A stretch of 64,000 bases of DNA from Paramecium tetraurelia (Eukaryota), in the NCBI GenBank assembly GCA_000165425.1, contig CT868067.1, positions 1-64,000 on the forward strand. The letters run 5' to 3'. Positions 1 to 47,990 of the stretch are shown one piece after another (positions within the stretch are counted from its first letter, which is position 1; each line of letters starts with the position of its first letter). Both the position numbers and the translations under genes were made by a program. Under the pieces are notes generated by a model, which was not told the DNA's origin, searched no databases, and saw only the letters and a program-made list of their open reading frames with translations.

Positions 1-3000
1 GTTTATTATCTTAAGGTAAGAAAGGTCTTCTAATTAGTTTTCTTTAAACAACTCCATCTTCACCTTAAACTAATATCTCTTCTTCAACATATTTAACAGG
101 TTCTGGTTGAAATTTGATTTCCATATTTCCTTCATTATTTTTGATCCAACCTTGTTATTTCAAGGCTTAATTTGATTGATCATTTTAAACAATTTTCCTT
201 GAAATTACTTATTTACCATTTCCTAAATCTTCTTCTAAGTTTTATCCCATCTATAAATTATCTATTTCTTCATTATTTAATGGTTTTCTTACAATTTTCC
301 TCTCTAATTTTCCTGTTTTTGGATTGATTTAAATGATTTCTTCTTCAATAAATTGTTCTGGTTCTTCTGAATTTAAGATGATCTCTTCTTATTTACCAAC
401 ATTCTACCATTATTATTTGCTTGCTTTAGGTTAAAGATTGGATTCTATTTTACGTGAAAGCACTTTGTTTCCATTCTTATCCACTTCATTTAATGAATCT
501 CCTTCTTGTACTTTTCCTCCCAAATACGGCTTTCTTACTAGTTTTCTTTCCATCATTCCTGTTTCATTATTAACCTATAAGACTTCTTCTGTAATATACT
601 AAGATGGTTCAACTCCCAATGATTATTCATAATTCCCATCATTATTCTTCTTCCACTTAGAAGAAGTAAGAGATAAGTCATTATCAACAATCTTTCTAGA
701 AACTACATAATAACCTTCACCTAAATCTTCTAAAAGTTGTTCTCCTTCTTCTATATTCTCATCTTCATCTAATGGTCTTCTTATAATTTTCCTCTCTTAT
801 TTTCCTCCTTGTCTCATAATTATAACTTCTTCTTCTATAAATTTGGTTGGTTCATGAATTGACAAGGTTTTTTCATAATTTCCTTAATTGTTTTTCCATC
901 CTTCCTTCTCAACTTACTAAGTTGATGAAGTATTTTCAACAATTCTTCTTGCAAGAATTTTATTTCCATTTGAATCATTTTCTTATATATTATTTCCTAC
1001 ATTCAAACCAGGTTAATACTATTTTCTTACTAATTTTCTTTCCATCTTTCCTGTCTCTTCATTCATTACTAAGACTTTCTTCCTCAATATATTTGGCTGG
1101 TTCATTCTAAACAATTACTTTTTCTAATTATCCAGTTTTCTAATTTTTCTTCCATTCATTTAAAGAACTATCATTTTGTACAATTCTTCGAGCCACAACT
1201 TTTTAGTTATTACCTATTGATTCATTTAATTAATCTCCGATTTCTTCATCATTTTCATAAGGTCTTCTAACCAATTTACGCTCTTGTTTACCTGTTTTTG
1301 GGTTTATTATTATTATTTCTTCTTCAATATATTGCTCAGGCTCTTCTTATGAAATTATCTTTTCTAAAGTACCATTTTATCCTTTTTACCAATCCTTTTG
1401 AACTTAATTAAATGATTAAGAATTATCAACTATTTTTCTAGATAAAATTCTATTTCCATCCTTATCAACTTCATTTAGGTTATTACCCATTTATTAATTT
1501 TCCTTTGTTAAAGGTCTCCTAACTAATTTTCTTTGTATTCCATTTTCTCCATAACAAAGAACTTCCTCCTCAACATATTTAGTAGGTTCATTCTAAGCTA
1601 ATTAAATTTCCATCTATCCTTATTTTGATTACCAATCTTTCATTTAATCCATAGATTACCCTTCACTTACGACGCACTATTCTTCGAGCAACCACTTTTC
1701 TAGTGCCATCACCTTCTTAAAGATTTTCTCTCAATTTCACCTACTTTCTGATTGAGTCAAAGGTCTTCTGATTAATTTTCCTTTCTTATTTCTAAGTTTT
1801 CGGATTTATGATGATGATTTCTTCTTCTATATATGCTTCAGGTTCTTCCTGTGAAACTATTTTCTCTAATTATCCATTATTCAATTAAACCCAGGTTGAA
1901 TCAACTGGTTTATTATTTGATACAATCTTTCTTGAGACTACTTTATTTCCATTTAAATCTTATTCTATCACAGCTCCTGTTTATAATTTATTATCTTAAG
2001 GTAAGAAAGGTCTTCTAATTAGTTTTCTTTAAACAACTCCATCTTCACCTTAAACTAATATCTCTTCTTCAACATATTTAACAGGTTCTGGTTGAAATTT
2101 GATTTCCATATTTCCTTCATTATTTTTGATCCAACCTTGTTATTTCAAGGCTTAATTTGATTGATCATTTTAAACAATTTTCCTTGAAATTACTTATTTA
2201 CCATTTCCTAAATCTTCTTCTAAGTTTTATCCCATCTATAAATTATCTATTTCTTCATTATTTAATGGTTTTCTTACAATTTTCCTCTCTAATTTTCCTG
2301 TTTTTGGATTGATTTAAATGATTTCTTCTTCAATAAATTGTTCTGGTTCTTCTGAATTTAAGATGATCTCTTCTTATTTACCAACATTCTACCATTATTA
2401 TTTGCTTGCTTTAGGTTAAAGATTGGATTCTATTTTACGTGAAAGCACTTTGTTTCCCATTCTTATCTACTTCATTTAATTAATCTCCTTCTTGTACTTT
2501 TCCTCCCAAATAAGGTTTTCTTACTAGTTTTCTTTCCATCATTCCTGTTTCATTATTAACCTATAAGAACTTCTTCTGTTATATATTAAGATGGTTCAAC
2601 TCCCAATGATTATTCATAATTCCCATCATTATTCTTCTTCCACTTAGTAGAAGTAAGAGATAAATCATTATCAACAATCTTTCTAGAAACTACATAATAA
2701 CCTTCACCTAAATCTTCTAAAAGTTGTTCTCCTTCTTCTATATTCTCATCTTCATCTAATGGTCTTCTTATAATTTTCCTCTCTTATTTTCCTCCTTGTC
2801 TCATAATTATAACTTCTTCTTCTATAAATTTGGTTGGTTCATGAATTGACAAGGTTTTTTCATAATTTCCTTAATTACTTTTCCAGCCTTCCTTCTCGAC
2901 TTACTAAGTTGATGAAGTATTTTCAACAATTCTTCTTGCAAGAATTTTATTTCCATATGAATCATTTTCTTATATATTATTTCCTACATTCAAACCAGGC

Positions 3001-4830
3001 TAATACTGTTTTCTTATTAATTTTCTTTCCATCTTTCCTGTCTCTTCATTCATTACTAAGACTTCTTCCTCAATATATTTGGCTGGTTCATTCTAAACGA
3101 TTATTTTTTCTAATTATCCAGTTTTCTAATTTTTCTTCCATTCGTTTAAAGAACTATCATTTTGTACAATTCTTCGAGCCACAACTTTTTAGTTATTACC
3201 TATTGATTCATTTAATTAATCTCCGATTTCTTCATCATTTTCATAAGGTCTTCTAACCAATTTACGCTCTTGTTTACCTGTTTTTGGGTTTATTATGATG
3301 ATTTCTTCTTCAATATATGCTTCAGGTTCTTCCTATGAAACTATTTTCTCTAATTATCCATTATTCAATTAAACCCAGGTTGAATCAACTGGTTTATTAT
3401 TTGATACAATCTTCCTTGAGACTACTTTATTTCCATTTAAATCTTATTCTATCACAGCTCCTGTTTATGATTTACGATCTTAAGGTAAGCGAAATCTTAA
3501 AATTAGTTTTCTTTAAACAACTCCATCTTCACCCTTAAATTAATATCTCTTCTTCAACATATTTAACAGGTTCTGGTTGAAATTTGATTTCCATATTTCC
3601 TTCATTATTTTTGATCCAACCTTGTTATTTCAAGGCTTAATTTGATTGATCATTTTAAACGATTTTTCCTTGAAATTACTTATTTACCATTCATCCTAAA
3701 TCTTCTTCTAAGTTTTATCCTATCTATAAATTATCTATTTCTTCATTGTTTAATGGTTTTCTTACAATTTTCCTCTCTAATTTTCCTGTTTTTGGATTGA
3801 TTTAAATGATTTCTTCTTCAATAAATTGTTCAGGTTCTTCTGAATTTAAGATGATCTCTTCTTATTTACCAACATTCTACCATTATTATTTGCTTGCCTT
3901 AGGTTAAAGATTCGATTCTATTTTACGAGAAAGCACTTTGTTTCCATTCTTATCTACTTCATTTAATGAATCTCCTTCTTGTACTTTTCCTCCCAAATAC
4001 GGTTTTCTTACTAGTTTTCTTTCCATCATTCCTGTTTCATTATTAACCTATAAGACTTCTTCTGTTATATATTAAGATGGTTCAACTCCCAATGATTATT
4101 CATAATTCCCATCATTATTCTTCTTCCACTTTGAAGAAGTAAGAGATAAATCATTATCAACCAATCTTTCTAGAAACTACATAATAACCTTCACCTAAAT
4201 CTTCTAAAAGTTGTTCTCCTTCTTCTATATTCTCATCTTCATCTAATGGTCTTCTTATAATTTTCCTCTCTTATTTTCCTCCTTGTCTCATAATTATAAC
4301 TTCTTCTTCTATAAATTTAGTTGGTTCATGAATTGACAAGGTTTTTTCATAATTTCCTTAATTACTTTTCCAGCCCTTCCTTCTCAACTTACTAAGTTGA
4401 TGAAGTATTTTCAACAATTCTTCTTGCAAGAATTTTATTTCCATATGAATCAATTTTCTTATAAATTATTTCCTACATTCAAACCCAGGTTAATAAACTA
4501 TTTTCTTACTAATTTTCTTTCCATCTTTCCTGTCTCTTCATTCATTACTAAGACTTCTTCCTCAATATATTTGGCTGGTTCATTCTAAACAATTACTTTT
4601 TCTAATTATCCAGTTTTCTAATTTTTCTTCCATTCATTTAAAGAACTATCATTTTGTACAATTCTTCGAGCCACAACTTTTTTAGTTATTACCTATTGAT
4701 TCATTTAATTAATCCCCAATTTCTTCATCATTTTCATAAGGTCTTCTAACCAATTTACGCTCTTGTTTACCTGTTTTTGGGTTTATTATTATTATTTCTT
4801 CTTCAACATATTGCTCAGGCTCCTCAGACA
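1..4830. repeat. Coding tandem super-repeat: near-identical blocks offset by ~1985 bp and ~1484 bp, built from ~248-bp modules
   Basis: ttaaggtaag recurs at 11, 1996 and ~3480. The duplicated ORF-track entries at 847/2834 and 1833/3317 reflect the same offsets. Confidence 0.95.
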
Positions 4831-7800
4831 AAACCATTTCAAAATTTTTTCCATTTTGTTCCCAATTTTTCAAATTCCCTATTTATTCAATAACTTTTCT
4901 TGATATAACAACATTTCCGTTTTTATCCACTTCTTTTAAATTATTTCCTACTTTACCTTTACACTATTCTATCGGTCGTCTAATAAGCTTACGTGTTATT
5001 TTTCCATTGTTATCTTTTACTAATACTTCCTCTTCTACATATTACATTGAATCAATTTATAATTCGAAGTTGCCTTCTTAATTTTTCAACCATTCCTATC
5101 CTTATTATATATTTTTATCTTTTTCTATAATTCTTCTTGCAATAATTTTAACCCCTACATCACCATCTTCATCCAACTCTTCACTTATCTCTTGTAATGG
5201 CATATCAAAGAATGGTCGTCTAACTAGTTTTCTGTCTTATTTTTTTGTTACTGGATTGTATATTAAGATTTCTTCTTCGACAAACTATTCTGGGTCTGAT
5301 TCTGATATTAATTTTTAAAAAAGTCCCTCTTAATTAAGTTACCATCCGTTTTTTAACATGAACTATTTTGTTTAAGAATCATCTATTATTCTTCTCGAAA
5401 TAACTTTTATTTCATTTTAGTTATATTATTCATTCTCTTCATTCATATCTTCTTTATATGGTTTTCTAATTAACATTCTTTCCATCTTTCCTGTATCCTT
5501 ATTATACCTTAAGATTTCTTCTTCAACATATTTAACAGGATCGCTTTTTTATTCTTTATCCTTTCCTTTATTTTGCATTTATTAAGGTGTAATTTTTTTT
5601 ACAAAAACCTTTTAGCTATTTTCTATTTATTAAATTTAGATTTGTTCTTTTCCTAGAATCCTTTCAAGTCTTTGCATGTTCTCCAAATTCCAACCATCTG
5701 CTCTCATTTAAGTCAAAGATTCATTATTTTCAACTAATCGTCTACTTTCTACAACTTCACCATTTTATTATTCTTCATTAATACCTTCTCCTAGAGTAAG
5801 CATTTCAGGTGCTTTTCTAATTTATTTTCGAGTGATACAATTACCCTCGTGTATTTTAATATCTTCCTCTAAGTATTATATAGGTTCATTTTTTGAAATA
5901 ACTTTTTTATATTTATTGTTGCTTGTTAATTCCCAACTCTAATCAATTACTTCGTTTATAACTCGACTTGCAATTAAAATTTAGTCTTTAGCTCTTACTG
6001 CATATAAATTTTCATCATTTACATATGCAGGAGAGTCACTGAAAATTATTTCTCTCAATAATACTCTATCCTATTTCTACTTATTTCGTATTAAAATTTC
6101 TTCTTCAAAAATTTTTAATGATTCATCAAATCTTTATACTCCTGGAGATTAGATGATAGGTGATACATTTTATCGATTTGAGAGTTGTTTTTTTGTTCCT
6201 AATATTCTACTTTAAAATTAATTGAATTCTTTATCCTGAGTTCCAAAATCTCCAACTGATAAATCATCAGCAATGCTTTATCTTTTTTTCGATGTTGCAT
6301 CTTCAAATATATCATCAGATTGATTAGATAGTCGTTTCAGGCCTTCTAGTTGAGATCTTACTGTTTCCATTTATTTATTCAGTTCCTGGTCATAGGTTCT
6401 TTCTTTGTGGATAAATTCTTATATTTTATCCTTTTCTGAACTGTTTGCTCTTGGATTTATCTCTTTTATCATTTATCTTATATCTTAAGCAGAGCTGCTT
6501 CTGTTTGAGTAAATTCTTTCTCTAAATTCAAATGCAATTTAAGGGTAATTATACGCAGAATTAATAGTAAGTTGAACATCTTAGATCAAAAGCCTCATTA
6601 AGTTAGCCTTTTTAACAGGAGATTTCGTTCTGCTTTCGGTGTAAGTTACAAAAGAGCGAGCTAAAGGTTGCTGCATGTTTGGTGTGCGAGATAGAAATGA
6701 TTTTGGGAGAAGTGCAGATTGCTTTAAAGGAGTTATTGCTGATTTATTAGATTTTAAAACTATTGGCTAAGGGGAATAATATAATCTAGACTTTTATTAG
6801 GGTATCACAACTTTGCTTGGGGTTCGATTTACTTAATGATTTATTATAGACAATTTTAATTAGGTCTCTTATTTATGTGCCTCAGATAGTGAGTATTATT
6901 ATGAATAATTTTGAATCGCACTTGATATTCCTTTTTTTTGGGCTCCATCAATAAAACGTTCTTTGTCTACAACAAAGGCTTAGATTGAGTTTAATGTGAA
7001 TTTCATAATATTTTATGGGGAGATTGCTGTATGCATAGCTTTTTCTGTATTTTCATATCGAATTTGTTCATAGAGAGCTTTCATTTCGATTTATTCGTTT
7101 TGGAACAGATTTGCTTTGTCTATTTTTATAAACTATTATAATTCAGTTAGACAAAATAGATGAGTGTCATTTTGTGAAACATTATGAATTTTTAATCTAA
7201 TATCCAGCTTTTTGATTACTAGTTCACTTAAAACTAATAGATATAATTCATTTTTATCTAAACCTTTAAGTTAATATTGTTACTTGTGAGCAAAAATGAA
7301 TAGCGATCGTTAGGCAAAATTTCAGAAATAACAAGATGTTCATTTGTATATGATTTGAATTGCTAAAGCATCCATTTCTGATTGCTATAAAAACTTGATT
7401 TAAAGGAATCTGATAATAAAAAAATATTAGAAGATCCTAAATTTTAAGTACAATGTGAAAAATACCATCAATAAGCAAGATGTAATCTTTTCCAGCACAA
7501 ATTTTATTAATTTTTATGGTTAAGGGGCCAACAATATAGGGTATTTCTGAATTTCCAATTGGTGTTTATCCCCATGTCCACAATTTTCCTGAATAGTCAA
7601 GTCCACATCCAAGATGAGAAGAAAGTGCCACCTACTTAAAATCTTTTCCTATCCTACTTGGAATAGGCAAAAAGTATATCTTCGAAATTCCAAGAGTGCC
7701 ATAATGATTTTTATCCTCTCCAAATGAATAAACTTACCCAGAATATGAAAGTGCCAATGTCACATTTTTGTTGGTTGTAATATACTTAATTTTTTCATTC

Positions 7801-8010
7801 TTGAAGGGTAGCTAATAAAAGGAAAGCTCGTAGCTGATATAATATAGGCAGCCTGTTTCTGAGAGTATCTAAAATGAATTTGGTGAAAACCCTTTACAAA
7901 TTTATCTCACCTTACCGAACTATCCAAGCACATTGAACGGTTTATATGTATTCTAAGACTTAAAGAAATAATACCTGTTCATCATCATAGATATACAGTA
8001 TATCATTCAT
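1..8010 (-). CDS. Giant protein, 3'-truncated by the window edge: N-terminal RCC1-like repeats, Ser/Pro/Gln-rich linker, then ~25 copies of an ~83-aa module
   Basis: ATG at 8010, MNDILYIYDDEQ, then a 22-nt intron. RCC1-like segments VTLALSYSGQVYSFGEDKNHYGTLG and LGCGLDYSGKLWTWG follow. From ~6120 downward the motif YVEEEI.I.NP.TGK.ERKL.RRP recurs. Several apparent +1/+2 indels occur within 1-4700. Confidence 0.8.
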
Positions 8011-8033
8011 TTTTTTAATTAAATTAAGTTGTA

Positions 8034-10455
8034 ATGGCAAAGTTGGAAAAGGCTGCAAACGATCTGGATTTTTACAAAAATCGTGATGAGACTCATCCAT
8101 AGAACCTTAATTATGAGCCTCCTGTTGAAGATTTCTATGGGCCAGTGGCAACAGAGCTGAGATTCTGTACAGATCTTATCTGCATTTTTATTTGGATTAT
8201 ATTTTTGGGGTTTTCTTTTGCTTATGGTTTTTATGGTAAAACTAGTTCCAAACCATATAATAGCGTACCAAGAGTTTAAAATAGAAAGACTCTATCGGAG
8301 TTCCGATTTTAGAACTGACTTATGCGGAATTAAATAATTAGAGAAGAAACCTTATGCTTACTTCCTCGACCCAGATAATTTATTCGATATTGCTATTTGC
8401 GTAGAAAAGTGTCCCAATACGATAGACTATGTAAATTGAAAATTAAACTAGACTTAACAAATTTGTTTATATGATACTGATGGATAAACTATATTAGAAG
8501 ATTACTGCTACGATACCTACTATACTGACCCTTACTTAGTTTATTGCATGCCCATGGAACTAGGATAAAGAAGAGATGCAATTGAAAAGATTATAAACAC
8601 CGATATGGAAATTTTTAAGAGAATAGCTGGTGATTTTTGGATAGTATAAATATAAATTAAAAATTAGAATATTGAGTTAATCGTAGGAGCATTTGCAGTT
8701 TAAATAGTAGTAGGAATCATTTTCGTCATTATTTTGTTAGGAAAGAGTATGATTTGAAAATAAATTAGGAATTGCTCATATGATGCTTTGGGGTTTTGTA
8801 ACTGGGTTTTGTGTTGCAATGGTATTCTTGTCTAAATATTTGGATGAAGAAAGGTATAAGGTAATTTAAAGGGATTGCCCTGTTGATATTAAAGATCCTT
8901 ATCAATGTGTGGCAGCACATTTGTATTTATTGGAAATTGCAAAGCAAGCTTTATTATACTTAATTCCTGTCTATGTATTCTTCCTAATTTACTGTTTTCA
9001 TCAAATTTTAAGGATGATTCAAGTTATGGAAAGAATGCTCAAACCTTTAAGGTAAATGCTACATGTCTTACTAATTCCATTCTTTATATCATTGTTGTAA
9101 GCTGCATTAGCAATTCTATTCATTTTAGTCTTAATGGGAGGTATAAACTCTGGAGCACCAGAAACTGTCTCTGCTCCTACTGGTTTTTCCAGCACTTCAT
9201 ATAGGAAATTAGTGTTTTAAGTGTGGTAAGAGAGAGGATTCTACGTGGTATTATTTTTTATGCTTTGGACACTGTAAGCCTTGTATTATTATGTTCGTTG
9301 TTATATTGCTTGCTGTTGTTCAGTTTGGTATTTCAGTAGAGATAAAAATTATTTAAACGCTCCTATGCTGAGACCTCTTTGGTACACTATTAGGTATCAC
9401 ATGGGAAGTTTTTTAATGGGAGCATTATTGATTCCTTTATTCTGGATTCCAAATGCTTTGTTTTATTATTGGAAATCCATGTTAGTATAAATGTCACGAA
9501 AAAGCTTTTTATTACACATTTTATTGTTTTTCTCAATCCCTGGGTTTTGGTTTTACGAATATGCAGGAAAGTATATCAGTCATAGGAACTTCATGCATAT
9601 AGCCATTTTTGGAGAAAGCTTTTGGATAGCAGGGCAAAAGACCTTTTATCTTAGAGAAAGAAACTCTTCAAGAGTAGAAATGATAAAGAAAACTCTTGGG
9701 TTTGTAAGGCTAATAGGAATGTTATTTATTTCATCAGTAGGAACTTACTTGGTTTACTATTAATTATATACTAATTAAATTATTGACAGATTTGTTATCG
9801 ATGTTAAATAGGCGGTTCATTTCCCAATAGTGCCAGCTATATATGTATTTTTAGTTGGTTTATATATTTCTCAAAACTTTTCCTCCATAATTGATATTGT
9901 TGCTGAAATAATGATGTTTGATTTAATAGCCGAGGAAGAGATGTTTATGGGAAAATAGAGATTTGCAGATTAAGATATGCTTGAATTCGCAAATAAATAT
10001 AGTAAAGAAAAGCAGAAATCCGATTTTGTTGTAACTAATTAAGGAAGGATAAATCCTATGAATGAAGGAGACGACGCTAACAAAGCTCTGGGCAAATTTG
10101 ATTTGGGAAATTTAATGGAGTAAGATGAGGAAGAACCTGAGGAACTAGATCCAGAACCAGAACCACCAGTTGAAGAACCAAAAGAAAAATCTATTAAAAG
10201 TGAGCATGATGATGATTTTGGAAGAGGAAATGAACTGGATTTGGATGAATTAGGAGATATGAATAATAAAAATAATGACGATCAATTTGATGACGAGGTA
10301 ATATTTAGTTTTCAATTTCATAGCTTGCAGAATTTAATAAATAAAGAGCACAAGATTCTAACAATAAAAGGAAATTAGAAGAGGATGTTATTAATTTAGA
10401 TCAAAATAAGTAATAAGCAGATGGGGCAAAAAAGACGGATAGAAGAAGATTTTGA
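8034..10455 (+). CDS. Choline transporter-like (CTL/SLC44) multi-pass membrane protein with an acidic C-terminal tail
   Basis: MAKLEKAAND...RFCTDLICILIW, ICVEKCP, RYHMGSFLMGALLI and FMHIAIFGESFWIAG are CTL-type motifs. Several tiny introns; TGA at 10453-10455. Confidence 0.88.
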
Positions 10456-10475
10456 ATTATAATTAAATATTTTAT

Positions 10476-11386
10476 ATGGGATCTCAAAGTAGTAAATTAG
10501 TTACAGAAACTTAAAGGCATGAGCATGCAATCAATTATATGAACTCTGGAGGGTAAGATCAATCATAACTTTAGCTCTATGAGCGACAAATCTGCTAAAA
10601 GTATCAAGGATATCGAATAAACACAACAGGAATTTGTAAATACATAGTTTAAATGGAATTTTGGTGGACAAAAGGTATTTGTGGCAGGCACATTCTCCTA
10701 ATGGAAAACTACTCACTAATTATAAAGAGATAAAGGTGGGGAGTTCAGTATAGTGATACCCTTACCTAAAGGAATTCATCATTATAAATTTATTGTGGAT
10801 GGCGATTGGAGATTCTCTCCTGATGATCCTACAACTGCAGATGAACATGGCAACATCAATAATGTAATAGATACAACCAAAGTCGAAAACAAAGCCAAAG
10901 AATTCATGGATTCAAGTCAATAATTTAAACCAGAGAAATCACCGACTGACTCTGTTATTTAGAATCAAAAATAGGTCATTTAAGATTTCAATTTTAATGA
11001 CAAAGCTCCTCCTGTTCCTCCACACTTACTTAAATACTATTATATAGAAGTAAATTTAATTATATATTCCATAGGAAAAAGAGAAAAAACTTAATAATAT
11101 GTGGAATAAAGATATTAGACCTCAAGGTTAAATGGAACTTGAAGATGCCAAACCATAAATATCATAGCAAGAAATATTTGATCACCTGATCTAGATTTTT
11201 AGCAACGTTAATTCATTGTCCCCTCCTCCCCATGTCAATCTTAATCATTTGGCCTGTCTAACTACAAATAAGAACAGCCCTTTTAGTGTTTATGCATTAA
11301 CACATAGATTTAAGGCCAAGCATACAACAATTAAATTTTACACCCACAAATATTAAGAAAACAAGCAACAATTGTTTGTTGTATGA
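10476..11386 (+). CDS. AMP-activated protein kinase beta subunit (CBM48 glycogen-binding domain + C-terminal ASC domain)
   Basis: MGSQSS start; FKWNFGGQKVFVAGTFSQW...LPKGIHHYKFIVDGDW; APPVPPHL; PPHVNLNHL; THRFKAKH. One intron at ~11050-11074. Confidence 0.92.
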
Positions 11387-12048
11387 AAAATCATAAATAA
11401 ACATTAACATAAAATAACATTCAAGCTATCTATTTTTCTATATAAATGCTCTTTTTCTTCAAAATCTTTATTTTTTCAACTGTTATTTCAACATATTCAA
11501 TCTAATGAATTCTAATTTGTCAAATCATATCATTTAAAATAATTAGCTGTAAAATTGTTAAGAATTATTACTAAAATATTTTTGATTGATATGATTTCAT
11601 TTGAGCGACTAACTTACAGTTATATATTTATTGTAGAAAAATAAATGAATTTTTAATTATTTTGAGTAAATATTAGCTACATACAACCTGAAAAATTAGT
11701 TTTAATCTCTCAAAAACTTCATTTTAGTAATGATAAGAAAATAAAAAGGTTTACAGTAATATTGACTTATATAAAATTCTTTCTAAGTTTGAAGCTCTAA
11801 AATATAATATACACGTTTTTTAATTCATATTACAATTATAAAACAAAAGAAATAAAAATATTATAATTGTTTTTATTAAATAAATCAGATAATGTTTATA
11901 CTAGGAATAATACTTCATTTCTATATGATTTTCTCCTCAAGCAGAAATACCATCTAATTTTAGGATTCTATTACTATTAATAGATATTCAATAATATTTT
12001 ATTTATTTCAATTCGATATTTTTATTAATTTCAAATTAAATAAAAGTG

Positions 12049-24409: not shown

Positions 24410-25951
24410 ATGGAAGGTATCATAACTTAATTTGGCATTTTATTTCTCCTAATAGCTCTCTTCATTTTTGATGGACTATTCAAATTAGTGCCACTCTATG
24501 CTATCATAGCCGAAGTCTATTCATTATATTTGGATAGCTAAAAAATAATACCTCAATAGAAAGAGTTGACTAAAAATTAAAAATTGACTTGGTAAGAATT
24601 GAAGAAGCATGACAACTAATCCTCAGCCTATGTAGCAATTAAAGGAAAAGTATATGATGTTACCTCATTTTTGAACAGCCATCCTGGAGGAAGGGAATTT
24701 TTATTGTTGAATTGTGGAAGAGATGCTACTCTTGCATTTCAATCATATCATCCCTTTTCTGATAAACCTGAGAAATTACTCGAGAAATATTTGATTGGAG
24801 ATCTTTTGACGACTGAGTGGCCAACCTTCAAGCCAGACTCTGGATTTTATAAGGAATGCACTGAGAGAGTTAAGAAATATTTTTAGTCCAAAGGTATAAA
24901 TCCTAAAACTCCAATCCCAGGACTTGTCAGAGCAATTCCTTTGTGGATTTGTTTCTTTTATACATTTTATTTAACATTTGTAAGTGATTCACTTGGCTTA
25001 ACCAAAAGAATTTTAATAGGCACCATTTTTGGTATTTTATAAGCATTAAATACTTTACATTTAATGCATGATGCATCTCATGGGGCTGTTGGAAACAATG
25101 AAAAATGGTGGTGGTTCTTTGGTAGACTTACCTTAGATTATATATCTGGATCATCTATGGTGGCATGGTAGAATTAACATGTCGTTGGACATCATTAATA
25201 CACAAATATTATGGGATCAGATCCAGATATCCCTTAATTGAAAGAAGGAGATGTTAGAAGACTAGTCAAAGAATAAATTTGGAGTGCTATGTATAAATAT
25301 TAGCATTTGTACATGCCTTTTCTATATGGTTTATTATCACTTAGATCTAGATATTATGATGTTTTTGAAATATTTTTAAAGGAAACTGATGGTCCTGTTA
25401 AGGTTAATCCAATATCTTTATAGGATAAGTTAAGATAAGCTAGTAGTAAACTACTATGGCTATTTTGGAGATACTTTTTGCCTGTTTAAGTTTTTGGAAT
25501 GAGTTAATGCTAATTTTGGTTCCTTTTCATATATGTGGAATTCATAACTGGATATTGGTTGGCTATTAATTTCTAGGTTTCTCATGTGTCAGATGAGGCT
25601 GAATTCTTCTATAATAATATTGATAAGGCAGTTAAAAATGGTACAAATGAACAATGGCCAATTGAATGGGCTGTTCTATAAATTAAGAGTTCAGTGGATT
25701 ATAGTCATGGTAATTGGCTTATGACTTACTTATGTGGAGCCTTGAATTATTAAGTCGTTCATCATCTATATCCAGGAGTGAGTCAATACTTATATCCAGA
25801 AATAGCTCCTATTGTTTTAGAGGTTTGTAAAAAATATAATCTTAAATATAACCTCCTTCCTGGATTCAAGGAAGCATGGAATGGTCATTTTAATCATTTA
25901 AAAAACATGGGTAAACAAAATAAATTTGTTGGTTTTGCCAAAATGGAATGA
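24410..25951 (+). CDS. Front-end fatty acid desaturase with fused cytochrome b5 (Delta-5-like)
   Basis: Intronless 513-aa frame; HPGG heme motif; His boxes HDASH, QHVVGHH, QVVHHLYP. Confidence 0.95.
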
Positions 25952-29760: not shown

Positions 29761-31229
29761 ATGAGTAGATATCCACAAGTCTTTTTAGATTTTCAAATAG
29801 GTACTTAGGCAGCTGGTAGAGTTATCTTTGACTTGTTCAATGATGTGACACCCAAAACGGCAGAAAACTTCAGAGGTCTTTGCACAGGTGAATATGGTAA
29901 TGTGGGAATGGCAAAGAAAACCAAAAAGTTGCATTATTTGAATACCAATGTATTTAGGATAGCTGATAATATGTTGATTCAAGGAGGTGATATTATAAAT
30001 AATGATGGAACTGGAGTATAATAAATTAAAATTTTAGGGTGCTTCAATTTATGGTTAAACTTTTGTAGACGAGAATTTTTCAAGAAGACATGCATGTGCA
30101 GGTTTGTTATCTATGGCAAACAGAGGAAGAAATACAAATAACTCTCAGTTTTTTATTACTTTAAAACCATGTCCCCATTTAGATGGAAAACATGTTGTAT
30201 TTGGATAGGTGATTGATGGCATCGAAGTCATTAAAAGAGTAGGTCAGGTGACTGTGGATATGCAAGATAGGCCAAGAATTCCAGTGATTATTATTAATTG
30301 CGGCGAGGTCTCAGAATCTAAAAATTGGTTGATTTGTGATCCTTTTAAAAAGGAGATTATGGATGAAATTCATAGAGATAGATTAAAGGCATTATATGGA
30401 TAAGAATATCTGGATGAGTTGGATAAGGAGGAAGAATAAAAATTATAGGCTTTGAATCCTGAAAAGTATAAGTAATAAAGTTTAGAAAATGAGGAGGAAA
30501 GCAATAAGTAATTGTTGGTCGAATAGTTACTATAGAAATAAACAGAAAAATAAGAGCAAGAATATGATTCATAAGAAAAATTACACTAATTTGAAGGGAA
30601 AAACTTTATGACATAAAAACACAAAGAAAGGTATTTGGAATTGACAAAGAAAATCTAGCAATCTAAAGTATTAAATGATAAGGCAGTTTTAAATGAGGAA
30701 AGGTAAAATACTGATGCTTAATATGATAAAAATCTAAGAAAAGGAAAATATCTTAAGAAAAAGGAAGCAGAGAAATAAGAACTTGAATTCAAATAAATAG
30801 ATGAGGATAAGGATTATTTGAATAGAATGACTCTCAAACATGATGAAGAATAAGAAAAAAAAAAAGAATATTTTGGGTGGGATGTATTTAACGAGGATGC
30901 TGTTTATAATGCTTATAAGAAAAGATGCACCACTTTAGCAAAAAATGAAGGAAAATATAAGCAATAAATGGGTATTTAATATTTATTAATTCTTAGAAAG
31001 CAATTAGGAGTTTCTACCTACTAATGAGGCTTTGGAGAGACTGAGTTCTGATATAGCAAATTAATAAGAGAGGAGAAAAGAGTTTTCAAGAAGAAGGAGA
31101 TTCAATGAAGATTAACCAGTAACATACATCAATGAAAGAAATAGGATCTTCAATAAAAAATTAGAGAGATTCTTTGGAGACTATGCTGCAGATATTAAGG
31201 CTAATTTAGAAAGAGGAACTGCATCTTGA
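29761..31229 (+). CDS. Cyclophilin-type PPIase fused to a C-terminal SYF2 splicing-factor domain
   Basis: [48 protein letters not shown]-terminus [46 protein letters not shown] (SYF2). Confidence 0.93.
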
Positions 31230-42257: not shown

Positions 42258-45200
42258 TCACATATATAGTATTTAATTTTCAATTTTCAGTAAATAGGTG
42301 AGAGTTTTATAAAAACTGTCTTCGTTGTACAACGCTTTAGGTGGTAACAAATAAACAAATTGTCTTATGCCCCACAATTTGTTCTTGATAGATTAATGAA
42401 TAATCCAAATCTAAGCCATATTTATCATAATAATGAAAAGGTAAAATATTATAGAAATCGTTAATTTGACTCTGTTGCTATCCAAGATTCCTTCCTCGAT
42501 AGTCTATCGAACTGTATCTACAAAATTACTAACCGCATCTATTATAAAACTTTCTGATAACATATGTCTCAATTAAAGCATTTGTGTTGCCGAACCTGAG
42601 ATTTAGTATAAATCTATGTTTTCTCTCAAGATTTAAAATATATCTTAAGAGGGCAATAATAATCCTTATTACAACTCTCCATTATTTACAGTCACACAGA
42701 TTTCAGGCTCATTGACAACTGGACACACATTACTTGAAAATAGAACCTTTAATTCTTCGGAAACTGTTCCCTCAGAGTAAAGTATATCTCCTAATATAGT
42801 ATTTGCCGTTGTGTAACTTTCACTGGTATAAATAAAAAATTATGCTGGATCTTCTGGATTTATAAGTTCATTTTGCACCAAATATTTATTACTTTGCAAT
42901 ATGAAATTAGTTAAACATGCTTCTGATAAGCTTTCTGTAAAAGTAATACATTTTTAATAGATTGCTAATTTTGACTCTAAATCACTTATTTATTGTTTGT
43001 CACTCATCCTTACTAATAAAAAAGTCACCAATGAAATAGTGATGGAAATTAAATGAAAACTAAATGTAAGTTGCCGTCTTACATTGAATTGCTCTTAAAC
43101 CTTTATAAATTTCTTGTTGTTATTGTTATTATTATTGTTGTTGTGATGAGCAGTAGAACTTCCACCCTAATAGTTATTATTCTATTTTTCTTCTTCTTCC
43201 GGATGGAACTTATCTTTTAATGAGAAATGGTACTCATAGAGATCAAAATGCTAATCAATCTATAAAATATAAATACATCTTGGTTGATTAATAACAATTA
43301 GTTCACGTGATTTAATTCGCTAGCAATTGCAGAATGTGAGATTTGCTCTGAACATCGTATGTATTTTTTACATAATTAAATGTATGAATATTACAAGAGA
43401 AATGCTATACAGAAATATACTACGTACACTGCAATAAAAGTAAAAGAAACATAGTCAATGATGTTATCCTGAGACCCCAAAATTGAATTGATTTCATCCG
43501 TGAATCTAGTATTCAAGAGGGAATACGCATTCTTGTACTTACTATAAGATCTCAATAAGTATAAAATAGACTTAACAAATTAAAAGTTATCTGTAAAATC
43601 AGTGATATGTAATGATCTTATCATATACATCAACTAAAACAGAGCAGTCCAACCCTTAACTGTTTTGTCTACATTCTCAAAAATATCCAATTATTCTAAT
43701 TCTATTGATGAAAACACTGCTCTGATAATAGAATTTTCTGAATATTCATCCATTTTTGTTGAAAATATTTCTATATTTCTATCCAAGACTGTCTGCAACT
43801 ACCCAAGTAGAGTAGCATTATATTCATAATACATTCCAAATTCTGATAAGTTGGAACCCATTTATATATATTATATCAAAGTCATGGATCCCTACATCGT
43901 GGCTCTACTATAAGCAGTCATTGTAAAAGCTTATAAAATATAAATGTTGCTTCTTATGTTACTTTACCAATTTGCATAGAGTATTGTACTTGCAGTTGTA
44001 AATCCTAAAATGGCAGTCAAAGAAAAGATATTTATGAATAGTAGAGCATAAAGTAATTTAGGTTTAGTATTCATCTCAGAGAACTTACGGTAAAAATGAG
44101 ATTTAACTAAAATCCTTTAGATTTCACTTTGCTTTGATGAATTACTACTGATGCTATTGATGTAGATTTATTTGTGAGGTTATTCTGGTGATTCGTTATC
44201 TTTTTCACTTGAATCCTACTTTGATACTATATCATGATGGTCACTACATAAGAATTCCTGTTGTCTTAAGGGCTAATTCTCCTATTCAGCTGGCACCATT
44301 TAACTTCGCAAGGTTATTGGGTCTGGCTGAGAAGTGAATTGAGGAATCTCGTTATCTCCTGCTCCAGGCATTACGTAATCCTTTAGCTTGATGCCTTCGA
44401 ATTCGGAACTATATTCATCCAAAGACTAAGACAATGGCGATTCATCAGAACAAACTGCTCCCAATTTATATGGCGATCTGATTTTTAAAACATACACTTT
44501 AAATACAATCCTGTTTACAAGAGAGTAAGACATTTGGACTTCTAAATCCAATTAGAATTTAGTATCCTTGTCTAATATCATTTCAATAGAATCTTAGGAA
44601 ACATTGAAATGCTAAACCAATTTATTTGCTGTTGTTAAGGTTTCAGCTACACCATTTTCCTTTTAATATTCCTCCAAATAATTTTGTAATTAAGCGTCCA
44701 AAGAGTTAAAATTTGGTATAAACTAATTTATAGGCTTTCCTAGTAATTTTGAGGGATTAGTCATCTCAAAACAGTCTAAAGCGTTATTAGTAATTCCCTC
44801 TATATTTTATTTGGAATCCAATAGAATGAAACCACTCAATCCATCCTATCTTATTCCTTATTTGATTTCTTTGGTGAAACAAAAGGATGGAAGAACATTT
44901 GATGAAAAATTAAAACTAATATCTATAAAGATTTCCAAATAACTCAAAACTCCTGGAGTTTATTGCTAAGTTAAGAATGGCAATGGCTATCTAAAAACCA
45001 TAGGTCTATTTGTTATTACAAACATCTCCATCATCTCATCATGTGCTTTGATTATACTTGGATAACAAAGTTGATCTAATGATTTTACTTGTTGTCTAAA
45101 TTCTTCAGAGGTATAACCTACAAAAGATGGAAAATTCTTAGAGAAATTGATGATTTCACCTCTCTTCATATGTGATTATGTTAGATTAAGTGACATATAC

Positions 45201-47428
45201 CCAACTTTATATGATTACTCTTCAGTTTTATAATAAAATGATGGGTATTCAAAAAACTTACTTTCCCTTGTATTGATTAGATTACATAGTTTAATAAATT
45301 GATCATAGTTATTTGTCACTTCAAGACAATAAAGCATGTAACAATACAAAGAGGTTCTTCCCGGTGAATATAAATTAAAATATTCTAGCTCTTTTTATAT
45401 CTTACAATTTTGTGTGTTTAATTTCAAATATAATTCTTCAAGTGACTCATAACTATGAGTTTCATCATTTAGTTTTAGTAGAAACTGTTTTTTATGCGAT
45501 AAATTGACAAATACTTATTTCAATAAGCGATCCCTCTCCAATTCTGTGTACCTGTAATCTTCATATTTCAAAGTTAACTCTATTGATTACCTAGTAATAT
45601 CCTCCTTGAATCTATGTAGAATTTGATATTTTGAATAGCTCTTCAGTAGCTCGAAAGCTAATCTCTGCTGCAAAGAACTTCCCTTCTCCAATAAATGTTT
45701 TAAATCCAGTATTTACAATTAAGCCTAGTAACACTCATCAGAATTGCATAAAAACACTAAGATCTATATCAAATATATAATATTCGGATGTGCCTTGCGT
45801 ATTTCAGTTTAGAAGACCAGCTTAGAGTAATCTCTTAAATATCTCATAATCAATTCCACATAAAATTGAATATTGAGTATTTTGAAATCATCATACATTC
45901 TCATTTCTTTAACTATCTCATATTTATCTATTATCTTTCTCTTTTCACCTTTCAGACCCCGACAAAAACAATATTGATTATTACAGTTTTCAGTGTGAGT
46001 CCTCAACAATATGATACACACCATAAGAATCTTTGATCTTTCAATCTTCAACTCCACTCCAGAATTTCTGGTTAATACTCCAATCTCTTACAATCTCATC
46101 AATTAGACTGCTCTTATAAAATGAATGAAGTAGGACATATCATATTACTTGATGATGTTTGATTAGAAATCCTTATACTTGATATTCTCACTTTCAATTC
46201 GTAATCCTTATTCAGACTCATGAGTATGTAAGGTTTATTGGGGTTATTATTATTAGAGATTTGCAAAAGCTTGAATAGACTTTTCTTTCTTTAATGTTGA
46301 CGTAAGCACATTTTCAATTCTGCTGTCTTGAAGAACAATAAATAGCCTACTTAAACAGGGAGCAATGATAAAAGATAAGCATATAATCTATTAGTCGGTT
46401 AGTCTGCAAATGAATAATAAAGTCAAACAAAGTACGATTGCCCTCATAAATACATTTGTGGAATATTTAAATTTCTATACATAGGGTAATGTTAGATAGG
46501 CATCTAAAGCATCAATCAGAAAAGCAATTATTACAAATATCAAATTGACTATGTAGATAAAATCATCTTCCTGTATAATGTTGCCTGCTCTTACATAAGA
46601 GTAACTGATCAATATGGGTACTATACTGAATCCTATATGTAGCCATTGTAAGTATGAAAATCTCAGTCTCATGAAGTTGGATTCATGTAAGGTAAATGAC
46701 ACCTAACACCACACTAATGATAAACTTGAAATTATCAAAGTTTCAATAGCCAATATGACATTCAGGATTTATCCAACAATTTATTGTGTTTCATCTGCCT
46801 TGTCTAAGACTAAGTTGATTTACAATAAGAAATAGAGAATGGGGATTAGGAAAACATGAGGAAAATAATTCAGGAATATTGCTATTTATCTCAGCCTTAT
46901 TATTTAAAGTGATGTATTTGATTAGTCTGACATCAAACGATGTTGAAATCCTTCTATATATGAGTTTTAATTGTAGATCTAATGCATAATCTGAATGCAA
47001 TCACTTAGATTGTCACTCTGACTGATATTTAATTGTCTTTTATTCTTAAACTTTGTTTATTTAAAAAATGTAATCTCATCGGACATACTCACTCCAACTA
47101 AAATGGCCGGAATGGAAAAGAATGCGATGAATACACTCTGACATGCAATCAAATAATCTGGTCCTAAATTTTCAGGCAAATAAATTGTTGGAACACATAT
47201 TCTAAATAGTAATTCCAAGTCTTGAGGTCCAGAAGTTCCATTAAAGTCGTTAAGCAAAGGAGCTAATTTTATTATGGCAACTTTTTAAAGGACACTCACT
47301 ATCATCGCTAATATCCAGAGGAAATAGTTTTCTTTCATTAAACAAAATTGTGTGAAGCCTATAATGAACTATAGTCTGTTCTCCAGTTTCTACTGCAAAC
47401 TCAGTTTAAAGTTCTCCAAATTATTCAT
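42258..47428 (-). CDS. Large multi-TM PAS-domain protein (TmcB/TmcC-like ciliate family)
   Basis: N-terminal TM bundle; HTENCNNQYCFC; GEIINFSKNFPSFVGYTSEE...LCYPSIIKAHDEMM (PAS-like); C-terminal TM segments ending FVYLLPP...ILYM*. Confidence 0.8.
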
Positions 47429-47990
47429 ATATGCAAATAAATTAATATAATTTAATAAATGAATTTGGTGCTATAATTCAGAAAGTAGTCTAATGAGCAA
47501 GTGGATATTCATATTCGTCTGCTCAATTCTAGGTTTTGTTTATGCAGGAATGCAAGATGCTTCCTACCTTAAAGAATTTAGCAAAGATACTAAGTACAAA
47601 AATAATTTGAAAATTTAATAAATATTGAAATTAATTATTATAATATGACAGTATTTAGGACATATTCAATCTTATTTTATATAAACTAATTGAATTGTAC
47701 ATTTTTACTTAAATTCTCATGTTTTAATGTATTTTAATTTTCCTCATAAAACAAGCTATGATACACTATTATGGTCTGGCTTCCTAAAATATTGAGGGAA
47801 TTTGATATCTAACATAGATAGAATATTACACAGTATGGCATTTTATACAAAATCTAGAGTATCATCAAAATCAATTAGTTTAGGGGTATCTCTATTGCAG
47901 GCCAATATGTAAATCAATCGGTATACTTGAATTGATGTGCATAACTAGAAACAGAATTAAGACATTGATTTATAATTATATATAAATTAT

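What the first reader, a model, noticed from the sequence alone, without database searches (positions are those of the whole stretch)
1..6120. Unrecognised ~83-aa module repeated ~25+ times in a giant RCC1-headed protein
Seen: on the minus strand, modules recur about every 248 bp with consensus EP..YVEEE(I/V).I.NP.TGK.ERKL(I/V)RRP...IG..L.E......I(S/A)R(R/K)I(V/I).N......W..N..G..EK.I. The acidic strand (EEE), NPxTG turn and basic strand (RKL.RR) suggest charge-paired beta-hairpins. The module does not match ciliate cortical repeats I know (alveolin EKIVEVP, articulin VPV, Sfi1 centrin-binding). Inference: a beads-on-a-string scaffold or molecular ruler of more than 2600 aa, anchored by an RCC1 propeller, possibly a new cytoskeletal or ciliary repeat domain.
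Basis: partly seen in the sequence, partly recalled or inferred. Interest (0 to 1): 0.75.

Follow-up and report, generated by a model that had tools for sequence, protein, structure and literature searches.

The report
Giant Paramecium protein, undescribed beta repeat
A Paramecium gene encodes a very long protein with an RCC1-type head followed by at least 25 copies of an ~83-residue beta-sheet module that matches no described domain or solved structure; what it does in the cell is unknown.

Summary
The window is Paramecium tetraurelia macronuclear DNA. The minus strand 8010..1 carries one gene: a weak RCC1-like head, a basic linker, then 25 modules (6127..2) spaced about 247 bp apart. The array has a six-module higher-order repeat of about 1487 bp. 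The reference frame is broken in 8 of 23 complete modules by 1-2-nt insertions, so public annotation splits the gene into several unnamed proteins.

These breaks are most likely assembly errors:
- 12 of 12 resolved breaks are insertions.
- Contigs from four independent runs lack all nine events tested.
- Removing those nine gives 1306 stop-free codons.
- Differences between copies are mostly synonymous.
- Four related metagenome contigs are fully open.

My best reading is a Paramecium-lineage-specific, rod-like spacer or tether protein. Function and location are untested. This is a new domain family within a familiar kind of architecture; interest is moderate.

The parts
7975..8010 (-). Exon 1 (ATG at 8010-8008; MNDILYIYDDEQ)
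   Evidence: Mapping of public model P0006 onto the window; sequence read
7953..7974 (-). Intron 1, 22 nt, GTA..TAG
7466..7952 (-). Exon 2 (core of the RCC1-like repeats)
7437..7465 (-). Intron 2, 29 nt, GTA..TAG
7284..7436 (-). Exon 3
7264..7283 (-). Intron 3, 20 nt, GTA..AAG
1..7263 (-). Exon 4, which runs off the window start. It is open throughout once the private insertions are ignored; m17 is not resolved.
7072..8010 (-). RCC1-like head, about aa 1-290 (extent is my estimate). Pfam matches cover only aa 63-180.
6128..7071 (-). Basic, S/T/Q/N-rich linker, pI 9.7, no family match
2..6127 (-). Array of 25 modules of about 83 aa (m0-m24)
4826..6127 (-). Unique, more divergent modules m0-m4
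   Evidence: single-copy contig depth
3333..4825 (-). Superunit 1 (m5-m10, types A-F). It carries 9 insertion events in the reference: 3532, 3663, 3692 (2 nt), 4161, 4374, 4452, 4486, 4495 (2 nt), 4678.
1849..3332 (-). Superunit 2 (m11-m16). m14 carries two private 1-nt insertions.
1347..1848 (-). Variant pair A'B' (m17 frame-broken, m18 intact)
2..1346 (-). Superunit 3 (m19-m24). m20 carries one private insertion and m24 is cut by the window start.

Best explanation
Shown:
- This is one Paramecium tetraurelia macronuclear gene. Public models GSPATT00037746001 and GSPATT00037745001, plus unnamed pieces, are fragments of it.
- It has three tiny introns in the head and about 2640 codons inside the window.
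- Its order is a weak RCC1-like propeller head, a basic low-complexity linker, then at least 25 tandem ~83-aa modules of one undescribed family.
- Each module is confidently predicted as two long beta-hairpins plus a fifth strand and two short helical turns. The first hairpin pairs the acidic IEEEIL strand with the basic ERKLIRR strand.
- Strand 5 of one module continues into strand 1 of the next.

Likely (about 0.85): the 1-2-nt frame breaks are errors of the reference assembly, and the array is translated as one chain under purifying selection.

Inferred (about 0.5): the array is a stiff, highly charged rod with no signal peptide. It works as a spacer or tether. The RCC1-like head docks one partner and the other end docks another; in the P. 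pentaurelia relative that end is a basic ~490-aa tail. The setting is probably the cortex or cytoskeleton of Paramecium. The family seems confined to Paramecium-like ciliates.
For: Gene and species:
- P0006 is 100% identical and named P. tetraurelia by its sources.

Module family:
- Alignment A1.
- 45-module consensus.
- The HMM hits only 6127..2.

Frame breaks as errors:
- 12 of 12 resolved breaks are insertions relative to paralogous copies, and 11 of 12 lengthen a run of the same base.
- Contigs of 4 runs (2 DNA, 1 probable RNA, 1 RNA-seq) leave out all 9 events in 3333-4825, mostly at full depth.
- Deleting those 9 events gives 1306 codons with 0 stops, against 20 stops before.
- After dropping 14 private insertion columns, 17 of 17 copies are stop-free.
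- Differences between copies are 58 synonymous to 32 non-synonymous, where only 20% of sites are synonymous (the pairs are not independent).
- Four of four related metagenome contigs are open end to end, 3359 codons in all.

Fold:
- Three modules: pLDDT 88.4, pTM 0.76.
- One module: pLDDT 93.4, pTM 0.81.
- In the three-module model, strands 76-84/86-95 and 157-165/168-177 cross the module borders.

No known relative:
- Pfam.
- PDB sequences, best E 0.14.
- Foldseek, best E 0.058 and 1.3.

Restricted range: 17 hits among 1.84 billion representatives.

Conserved module order: C D E F A' B' is kept in L004.

Composition: modules have pI about 5.1 with about 18% acidic and 15% basic residues and almost no Cys; linker and tail have pI 9.7-9.8.
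Against: - No localisation, proteomic or phenotype data exist. The gene ids appear in no searchable paper.
- The read evidence comes from contigs, not reads. Contigs laid on m5-m10 probably come from the paralogous copies. At 4715 and 4718 all four runs carry the m11/m19-type synonymous letters, and contigs drop rarer variants. Absence of the insertions is therefore supportive, not proof.
- At 3532, 4374 and 4452 part of the depth does not show the deletion. Clipped contig ends lie at those places.
- Expression rests on one RNA-seq run whose contigs match unique parts exactly. No spliced joint was seen, and DNA carry-over is not excluded.
- Rod stiffness rests on an AlphaFold model built from 23 aligned rows. 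I could not inspect its coordinates.
- The RCC1 head is only marginally above Pfam's repeat threshold.
- The true 3' end lies outside the window.
Confidence: 0.55

Rival explanations
1. Filament-side binder or ruler (nebulin/titin-like). Each module would bind one subunit of a periodic polymer such as a microtubule lattice or cortical fibre. The six-module super-repeat would match that polymer's long period, so the protein lies along a filament rather than bridging two structures.
For: - Six position-specific module types exist.
- Their order is kept in a related ciliate (L004).
- Six charged or aromatic positions are invariant in every module.
- The weakest of leads: the top Foldseek rows for both models are chains of ciliary doublet-microtubule structures.
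Against: - The near-identity of superunits in P. tetraurelia shows recent duplication or gene conversion, which needs no functional period.
- No partner is known.
Confidence: 0.15
2. Regulatory protein. The RCC1-like head would be the active part, a GEF or binder of a small GTPase as in other RCC1-like-domain proteins. The array would only place or multimerise it.
For: - The RCC1_2 and RLD Pfam matches.
- Other RCC1-like-domain proteins work in Paramecium exocytosis: Nd6p, known to me only from the title in the reference list of PMC13739732.
Against: - The head matches only the middle of the RLD profile, at 40 bits against a cut-off of 150.
- The head plus linker found no relative among the 8000 scored candidates of 602-1918 aa, so it evolves fast.
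- More than 75% of the protein is array, which is kept under purifying selection.
Confidence: 0.1
3. Decaying gene. The frameshifts would be real, only the 1096-aa product (P0006) or nothing would be made, and the downstream modules would be untranslated relics.
For: - The reference sequence and the public gene models are broken.
- The read evidence is from contigs that may come from intact paralogous copies.
Against: - All 12 resolved breaks are insertions.
- Corrected frames have no stops.
- Copies downstream of the first break differ mainly at synonymous sites.
- The reference also has a burst of 10 substitutions at 3469-3500 that an independent contig contradicts, a sign of low sequence quality.
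- Relatives are intact.
Confidence: 0.07
4. Elastic or ion-responsive element. The charge-paired sheets would unfold or stiffen with force, Ca2+ or pH, giving a spring in the cortex.
For: - Very high and balanced charge.
- D-x-N/D-G turns recur in every module.
- Paramecium has Ca2+-driven cortical networks (my own knowledge).
Against: - No EF-hand or other Ca-binding family was hit.
- The D-x-N-G motif is an ordinary hairpin turn.
- There are no data.
Confidence: 0.06

Closest known systems
SasG/Aap G5-E repeat rods of staphylococci (recalled, not fetched here)
   Same: A head domain is followed by many near-identical tandem beta modules of about 80 aa, with strands that run on between modules. 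Repeat number sets the length of a stiff rod. High DNA identity between repeats makes assemblies unreliable.
   Different: - SasG/Aap are bacterial, secreted and wall-anchored. This protein is ciliate and has no signal peptide.
- No Pfam G5 match was found.
- The modules here carry two helical turns and a conserved Trp.
Titin and nebulin super-repeats (recalled)
   Same: A giant protein built of one small module type, with a higher-order super-repeat of differentiated, position-specific modules (six types here).
   Different: - The module is not Ig, Fn3 or a nebulin repeat.
- No periodic partner filament is known.
- Superunits in P. tetraurelia are up to 100% identical in DNA, which points to recent duplication.
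RCC1-like-domain proteins with long repetitive regions, such as RPGR, and Paramecium Nd6p (both recalled; the Nd6p title was seen in the reference list of PMC13739732)
   Same: An N-terminal RCC1-like propeller followed by a long non-catalytic region.
   Different: - The head here is weak and partial by Pfam.
- Nd6 is described as part of an Alveolata-wide complex (passages of PMC13739732), whereas this module family was found only in Paramecium-like sequences.
Giant repeat proteins of ciliate cortical networks: Sfi1-type centrin binders of Paramecium and Spirostomum, and GSBP1/2 (abstracts of PMC9946354 and bioRxiv 10.1101/2024.11.07.622534 seen in the listing)
   Same: Lineage-specific giant ciliate proteins made of tens of tandem repeats that build cortical structures.
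   Different: - Those repeats are helical centrin- or spasmin-binding units. This one is an all-beta-sheet module with no match to them.
- No Pfam Sfi1 or alveolin hit was found.

Membership tests
RCC1 repeat / RCC1-like domain (Pfam PF00415, PF13540, PF25390) | Repeat HMM match above the curated cut-off | tested here: met
   RCC1_2 scored 27.9 bits on the 8006-7251 ORF and 23.2 bits on P0006, against a cut-off of 22. RCC1 scored 20.0 against 21.7, just below.
RCC1 repeat / RCC1-like domain (Pfam PF00415, PF13540, PF25390) | Complete seven-bladed propeller | tested here: inconclusive
   PF25390 matched profile positions 87-217 of 363 only, at 40 bits against a cut-off of 150.
Described ciliate cortical repeats (alveolin/IMCp, articulin, Sfi1) as held in Pfam | HMM match of the module to any Pfam family | tested here: not met
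   No family reached its cut-off in P0001, P0002, P0003, P0005, P0006 or a 280-aa module stretch. Only sub-threshold noise appeared, such as DUF1659 at 15.1 against 24.1 and DUF6651 at 23.3 against 27.
DM10 domain of ciliary microtubule inner proteins (my guess for the weak Foldseek rows; chain identities are recalled, not verified) | Significant fold or sequence similarity | tested here: inconclusive
   - Foldseek E 1.4-2.5 for single-module hits to doublet-microtubule chains.
- No Pfam hit.
G5 / E repeats (SasG, Aap) | Pfam G5 HMM match | tested here: not met
   No hit. The likeness is in architecture only.
[not shown]
   - Foldseek found 0 rows with E of 0.001 or less.
Nd6p (Paramecium exocytosis protein with RCC1-like domains) | Sequence identity or orthology to Nd6p | not tested
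   - The Nd6p sequence and paper were not at hand.
- Indirect evidence only: the sources call P0006 'unnamed/uncharacterized', and the head plus linker search returned only itself.

The most novel reading that the evidence does not exclude
The module is a genuinely new protein fold. Its copies join head to tail through a shared strand into one continuous charged beta-ribbon, possibly on the order of 100 nm long (my estimate; not measured). Its conserved six-module super-repeat is matched to a periodic cortical structure. That would make this a Paramecium-specific molecular ruler or strut, for example of the cortical-unit lattice, whose proteins, to my knowledge, are still unidentified.
Probability: 0.15. 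Interest if true: 0.8.

Novelty: new variant of a known kind. Interest (0 to 1): 0.5.

Why it matters
- It would add a confidently modelled domain family, absent from Pfam and without a PDB match, to the short list of modules that build giant rod proteins. It would also give Paramecium cell biology a candidate structural component to tag.
- The current public annotation of this locus is wrong, most likely because of assembly errors in a high-identity repeat: one gene is cut into several 'unnamed' proteins. The same problem probably hides other repeat giants in ciliate genomes.
- The family is nearly invisible in metagenome protein catalogues, because gene callers using the standard code chop it at TAA/TAG.

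Tried and rejected
- Tandem Repeats Finder on 1-12000 found only a 16-nt array. Neighbouring modules are too unlike in DNA, and the high-identity period exceeds 500.
- No whole genome is held for this window.
- Pfam on all pieces found nothing for the module.
- A PDB sequence profile search gave a best E of 0.14.
- Foldseek against PDB and VIA-align wide, on the 3-module and 1-module models, found no match above background.
- The head plus linker search and the P. pentaurelia tail search each returned only the query. Both covered limited length ranges, so they say little.
- Split-propeller idea, prompted by earlier finding e1-5403247: the tail of P0005 has no RCC1 match.
- A 16-nt micro-intern reading of the m5 break is rejected. 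The paralogous copies show a simple extra A in an A-run.
- Programmed frameshifting is rejected. The breaks sit at unrelated sequences and are missing from independent contigs.
- Literature: the gene, protein and accession ids appear in no held paper. Keyword searches found nothing on this protein.
- Supplements of PMC3091696 held no occurrence, and 2 files were unreadable. Supplements of the P. tetraurelia subcellular-proteomics preprint (10.1101/2025.04.24.650466) are closed and could bear on localisation.
- The RNA contigs (X17, X20) do not cover 7149-7466, where two introns lie, and no spliced joint was reported. This shows nothing either way.
- Contig depth in the repeat is about 3-8 times that of the unique part. 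This is only a rough hint of copy number. It cannot settle whether P0003, from another scaffold, is the same DNA assembled twice or further copies.
- The earlier-findings index had nothing for this genome or sequence.
Full report
WHAT THE WINDOW IS

GC content is about 28%. Long frames open only when TAA and TAG are read as Gln. The gene's head holds 20-29-nt GTA..AG introns. A profile of the modules found a 1096-aa public protein, P0006, that is 100% identical to the window. Its sources name it as Paramecium tetraurelia macronuclear 'unnamed protein product', GSPATT00037746001 / XP_001436704.1 / A0CEU0, on a 144,165-bp scaffold.

THE OBSERVATION

On the minus strand an anchor motif recurs 24 times between 5890 and 16. 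A more degenerate copy starts at 6127.
- Modules m2-m23 are 231-264 nt long, mean 247.
- m1 carries a ~30-aa insert.
- m24 is cut by the window start.
- An HMM built from 45 modules of this gene and its relatives hits only 6127..2, minus strand, in the whole 64 kb.
E9, E10, R23, R27, R55 and W71 are kept in 98-100% of 45 unique modules.

The head, ATG at 8010, gives marginal RCC1 matches. RCC1_2 scores 27.9 bits against a cut-off of 22. PF25390 scores 40 bits over profile positions 87-217 of 363.

First, the modules fall into six types, A to F. In the window they are ordered m5-10 = ABCDEF, m11-16 = ABCDEF, m17-18 = A'B', m19-24 = ABCDEF. This gives direct DNA repeats 1485-1493 and 1985-1987 nt apart.

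Second, 8 of the 23 complete modules are frame-broken in the reference. That is why public annotation cuts the locus into P0006, P0008 and further pieces.

ARE THE BREAKS REAL?

Aligning each broken module with its paralogous copies resolves 12 break events, 14 nt in all, in 7 modules. All 12 are insertions, and 11 lengthen a run of the same base. The breaks in m17 are not resolved.

I laid Logan contigs of four runs from four studies on 3333-8100. Two runs are DNA, one is probably RNA and one is RNA-seq. All nine events in that stretch are 'left out', mostly at 100% of the depth. The exceptions are:
- 3532: 151 of 387 in X9, and 31 of 69 in X17.
- 4374: 30 of 43 in X17.
- 4452: 245 of 349 in X2, and 0 of 8.7 in X20.

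Clipped contig ends sit at these three places.

Removing the nine events turns 20 stops into 0 over 1306 codons. Fourteen runs hold only 0.91-0.93 of the stretch's sampled words, which fits a reference that carries private errors.

One caveat applies. These are contigs, which drop rarer variants. At 4715 and 4718 all four runs show the m11/m19-type letters, so what lies on m5-m10 probably comes from the intact sister copies. The result supports the error reading but does not prove it.

Independent support comes from four other results:
- After dropping 14 private insertion columns, 17 of 17 copies read without a stop.
- Pairwise differences are 58 synonymous to 32 non-synonymous, where 20% of sites are synonymous. 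Without the m10/m16 pair the count is 56 to 22. The pairs overlap, so the binomial p of 7e-20 is only indicative.
- The 10 non-synonymous differences in m10 coincide with a burst of 10 substitutions at 3469-3500 that an independent contig contradicts. This is a sign of poor reference quality there.
- Four metagenome contigs encoding relatives are open from end to end under the ciliate code: 875, 1210, 541 and 733 codons with no stop. The P. pentaurelia relative P0005 is an intact 1430-aa model.

I put the chance that the breaks are artefacts at about 0.85.

GENE ANATOMY

| Feature | Coordinates |
|---|---|
| Exon 1 | 8010-7975 |
| Intron 1 | 7974-7953 |
| Exon 2 | 7952-7466 |
| Intron 2 | 7465-7437 |
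| Exon 3 | 7436-7284 |
| Intron 3 | 7283-7264 |
| Exon 4 | 7263 to beyond position 1 |

That is about 2640 codons in the window.
- The head covers about aa 1-290.
- The linker, about aa 291-640, is basic (pI 9.7) and rich in S/T/Q/N.
- The modules have pI about 5.1, about 18% D+E, 15% K+R, and almost no Cys.
- In P. pentaurelia the array ends in a ~490-aa basic tail with no family match.

The N-terminus shows no obvious signal peptide by eye; this was not tested with a predictor.

P0003, a partial 905-aa model on a 440-kb scaffold, carries nearly the same modules with breaks at other places. It is either the same DNA assembled twice or more of the array. Contig depth, at 3-8 times the unique part, is too rough to tell.

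THE MODULE

AlphaFold2 on three modules with 23 aligned rows gave pLDDT 88.4 and pTM 0.76. On one module with 26 rows it gave pLDDT 93.4 and pTM 0.81.

| Element | Residues |
|---|---|
| Strand 1 | 5-14 |
| Strand 2 | 21-29 |
| Short helix | 32-37 |
| Strand 3 | 41-49 |
| Strand 4 | 52-61 |
| Short helix | 66-71 |
| Trp bridge | about 75 |
| Strand 5 | 82-86 |

In the three-module model strand 5 runs, after a one- or two-residue break at the conserved E-P, into strand 1 of the next module. The strand pairs are 76-84/86-95 and 157-165/168-177. Together with the high pTM this argues for a stiff, continuous array rather than beads on flexible links. I could not read coordinates, so length per module is not measured.

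COMPARISON WITH WHAT IS KNOWN

- No Pfam family matches.
- No PDB sequence matches; the best E is 0.14.
- Foldseek against PDB gave 0 rows at E of 0.001 or less, with best values 0.058 and 1.3.

DISTRIBUTION

HMMER with the 14-module profile against 1.84 billion representatives found 17 proteins. These are P0006 and 16 ORFs of 30-121 aa. The 10 ORFs I looked up all come from metagenome or SRA assemblies (one is also in NCBI). They are pieces cut at TAA/TAG by standard-code gene calling.

The word-indexed search found only P. tetraurelia pieces and one P. pentaurelia protein. In metagenome locus L004 the module types follow each other as C D E F A' B', as in the window. Module identity is therefore position-specific and older than the species split. 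The near-identity of whole superunits in P. tetraurelia is recent. No Tetrahymena or other named ciliate protein was found, though the profile was narrow.

HOW IT MOST LIKELY WORKS

Shown:
- One gene with an RCC1-like head, a basic linker and at least 25 modules of a new family.
- Sequence evolution consistent with purifying selection on the protein.

Inferred:
- A long, stiff, highly charged rod in the cytoplasm, with a propeller at one end and a basic tail at the other. That makes it a spacer or tether between two structures, probably cortical.
- The closest working analogies are SasG/Aap rods and the super-repeated giants titin and nebulin. These are analogies of architecture, not membership.

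Rivals, with my confidence in each:
- A filament-side ruler, 0.15.
- A regulator driven by the RCC1 head, 0.10.
- A decaying gene, 0.07.
- An ion- or force-responsive spring, 0.06.

EXPRESSION

An RNA-seq run (X20) holds contigs identical to unique parts of the gene: 5696-6024, 6340-6741, 6773-7079 and 7524-7925. No spliced joint was seen and DNA carry-over is not excluded. Transcription is therefore suggested, not shown.

No paper held in the library names the gene.

VERDICT

This is a real, probably intact but mis-assembled and mis-annotated gene for a Paramecium-lineage giant protein built from a domain that no searched library describes. It has a confident predicted fold and no detectable relatives. 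Its function is open. Interest is moderate at 0.5. It is a new domain family inside a familiar architectural kind.

Noticed in passing
window 8780-10522 (+): Divergently placed neighbour: a 580-aa ORF with a strong choline-transporter-like domain (PF04515, E 2e-44). Its first exons probably lie upstream of 8780.
   Followed up: partly
window 3469-3500: A burst of 10 substitutions in the reference relative to an independent DNA contig (X2). It coincides with 10 non-synonymous differences between m10 and m16 and looks like a low-quality stretch of the assembly.
   Followed up: partly
P0003 (another P. tetraurelia scaffold of 440 kb; not in the window): A partial 905-aa model with almost the same modules in the order C D E F A B C D E F A', but with frame breaks at other places. 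It is either the same array assembled twice or its continuation, so the two scaffolds may abut inside this gene.
   Followed up: partly
window 24410-25951 (+): Cytochrome b5 fused to a fatty-acid desaturase (PF00173 and PF00487), the front-end desaturase type.
   Followed up: no
window 30002-31027 (+): Cyclophilin domain (PF00160; only the C-terminal half of the profile) followed by a ~240-aa highly charged K/E/Q tail. Upstream exons were probably missed.
   Followed up: no
window 43025-47512 (-): A 1495-aa ORF with many hydrophobic stretches and no Pfam match at E of 1e-5 or less. The adjacent ORF 42258-43373 (-) also has no match. It may be one large membrane protein of unknown family.
   Followed up: no
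window 56278-57300 (+) and 59090-60541 (+): Two neighbouring ORFs that look alike by eye. The second has an Ion_trans_2 match (E 5e-6). They are likely tandem paralogues of a K+-channel-like gene.
   Followed up: no
L001-L004 (metagenome loci): Standard-code gene calling chops ciliate genes at TAA/TAG. This family therefore appears in protein catalogues only as 30-210-aa 'hypothetical' fragments, so catalogue counts understate it.
   Followed up: partly
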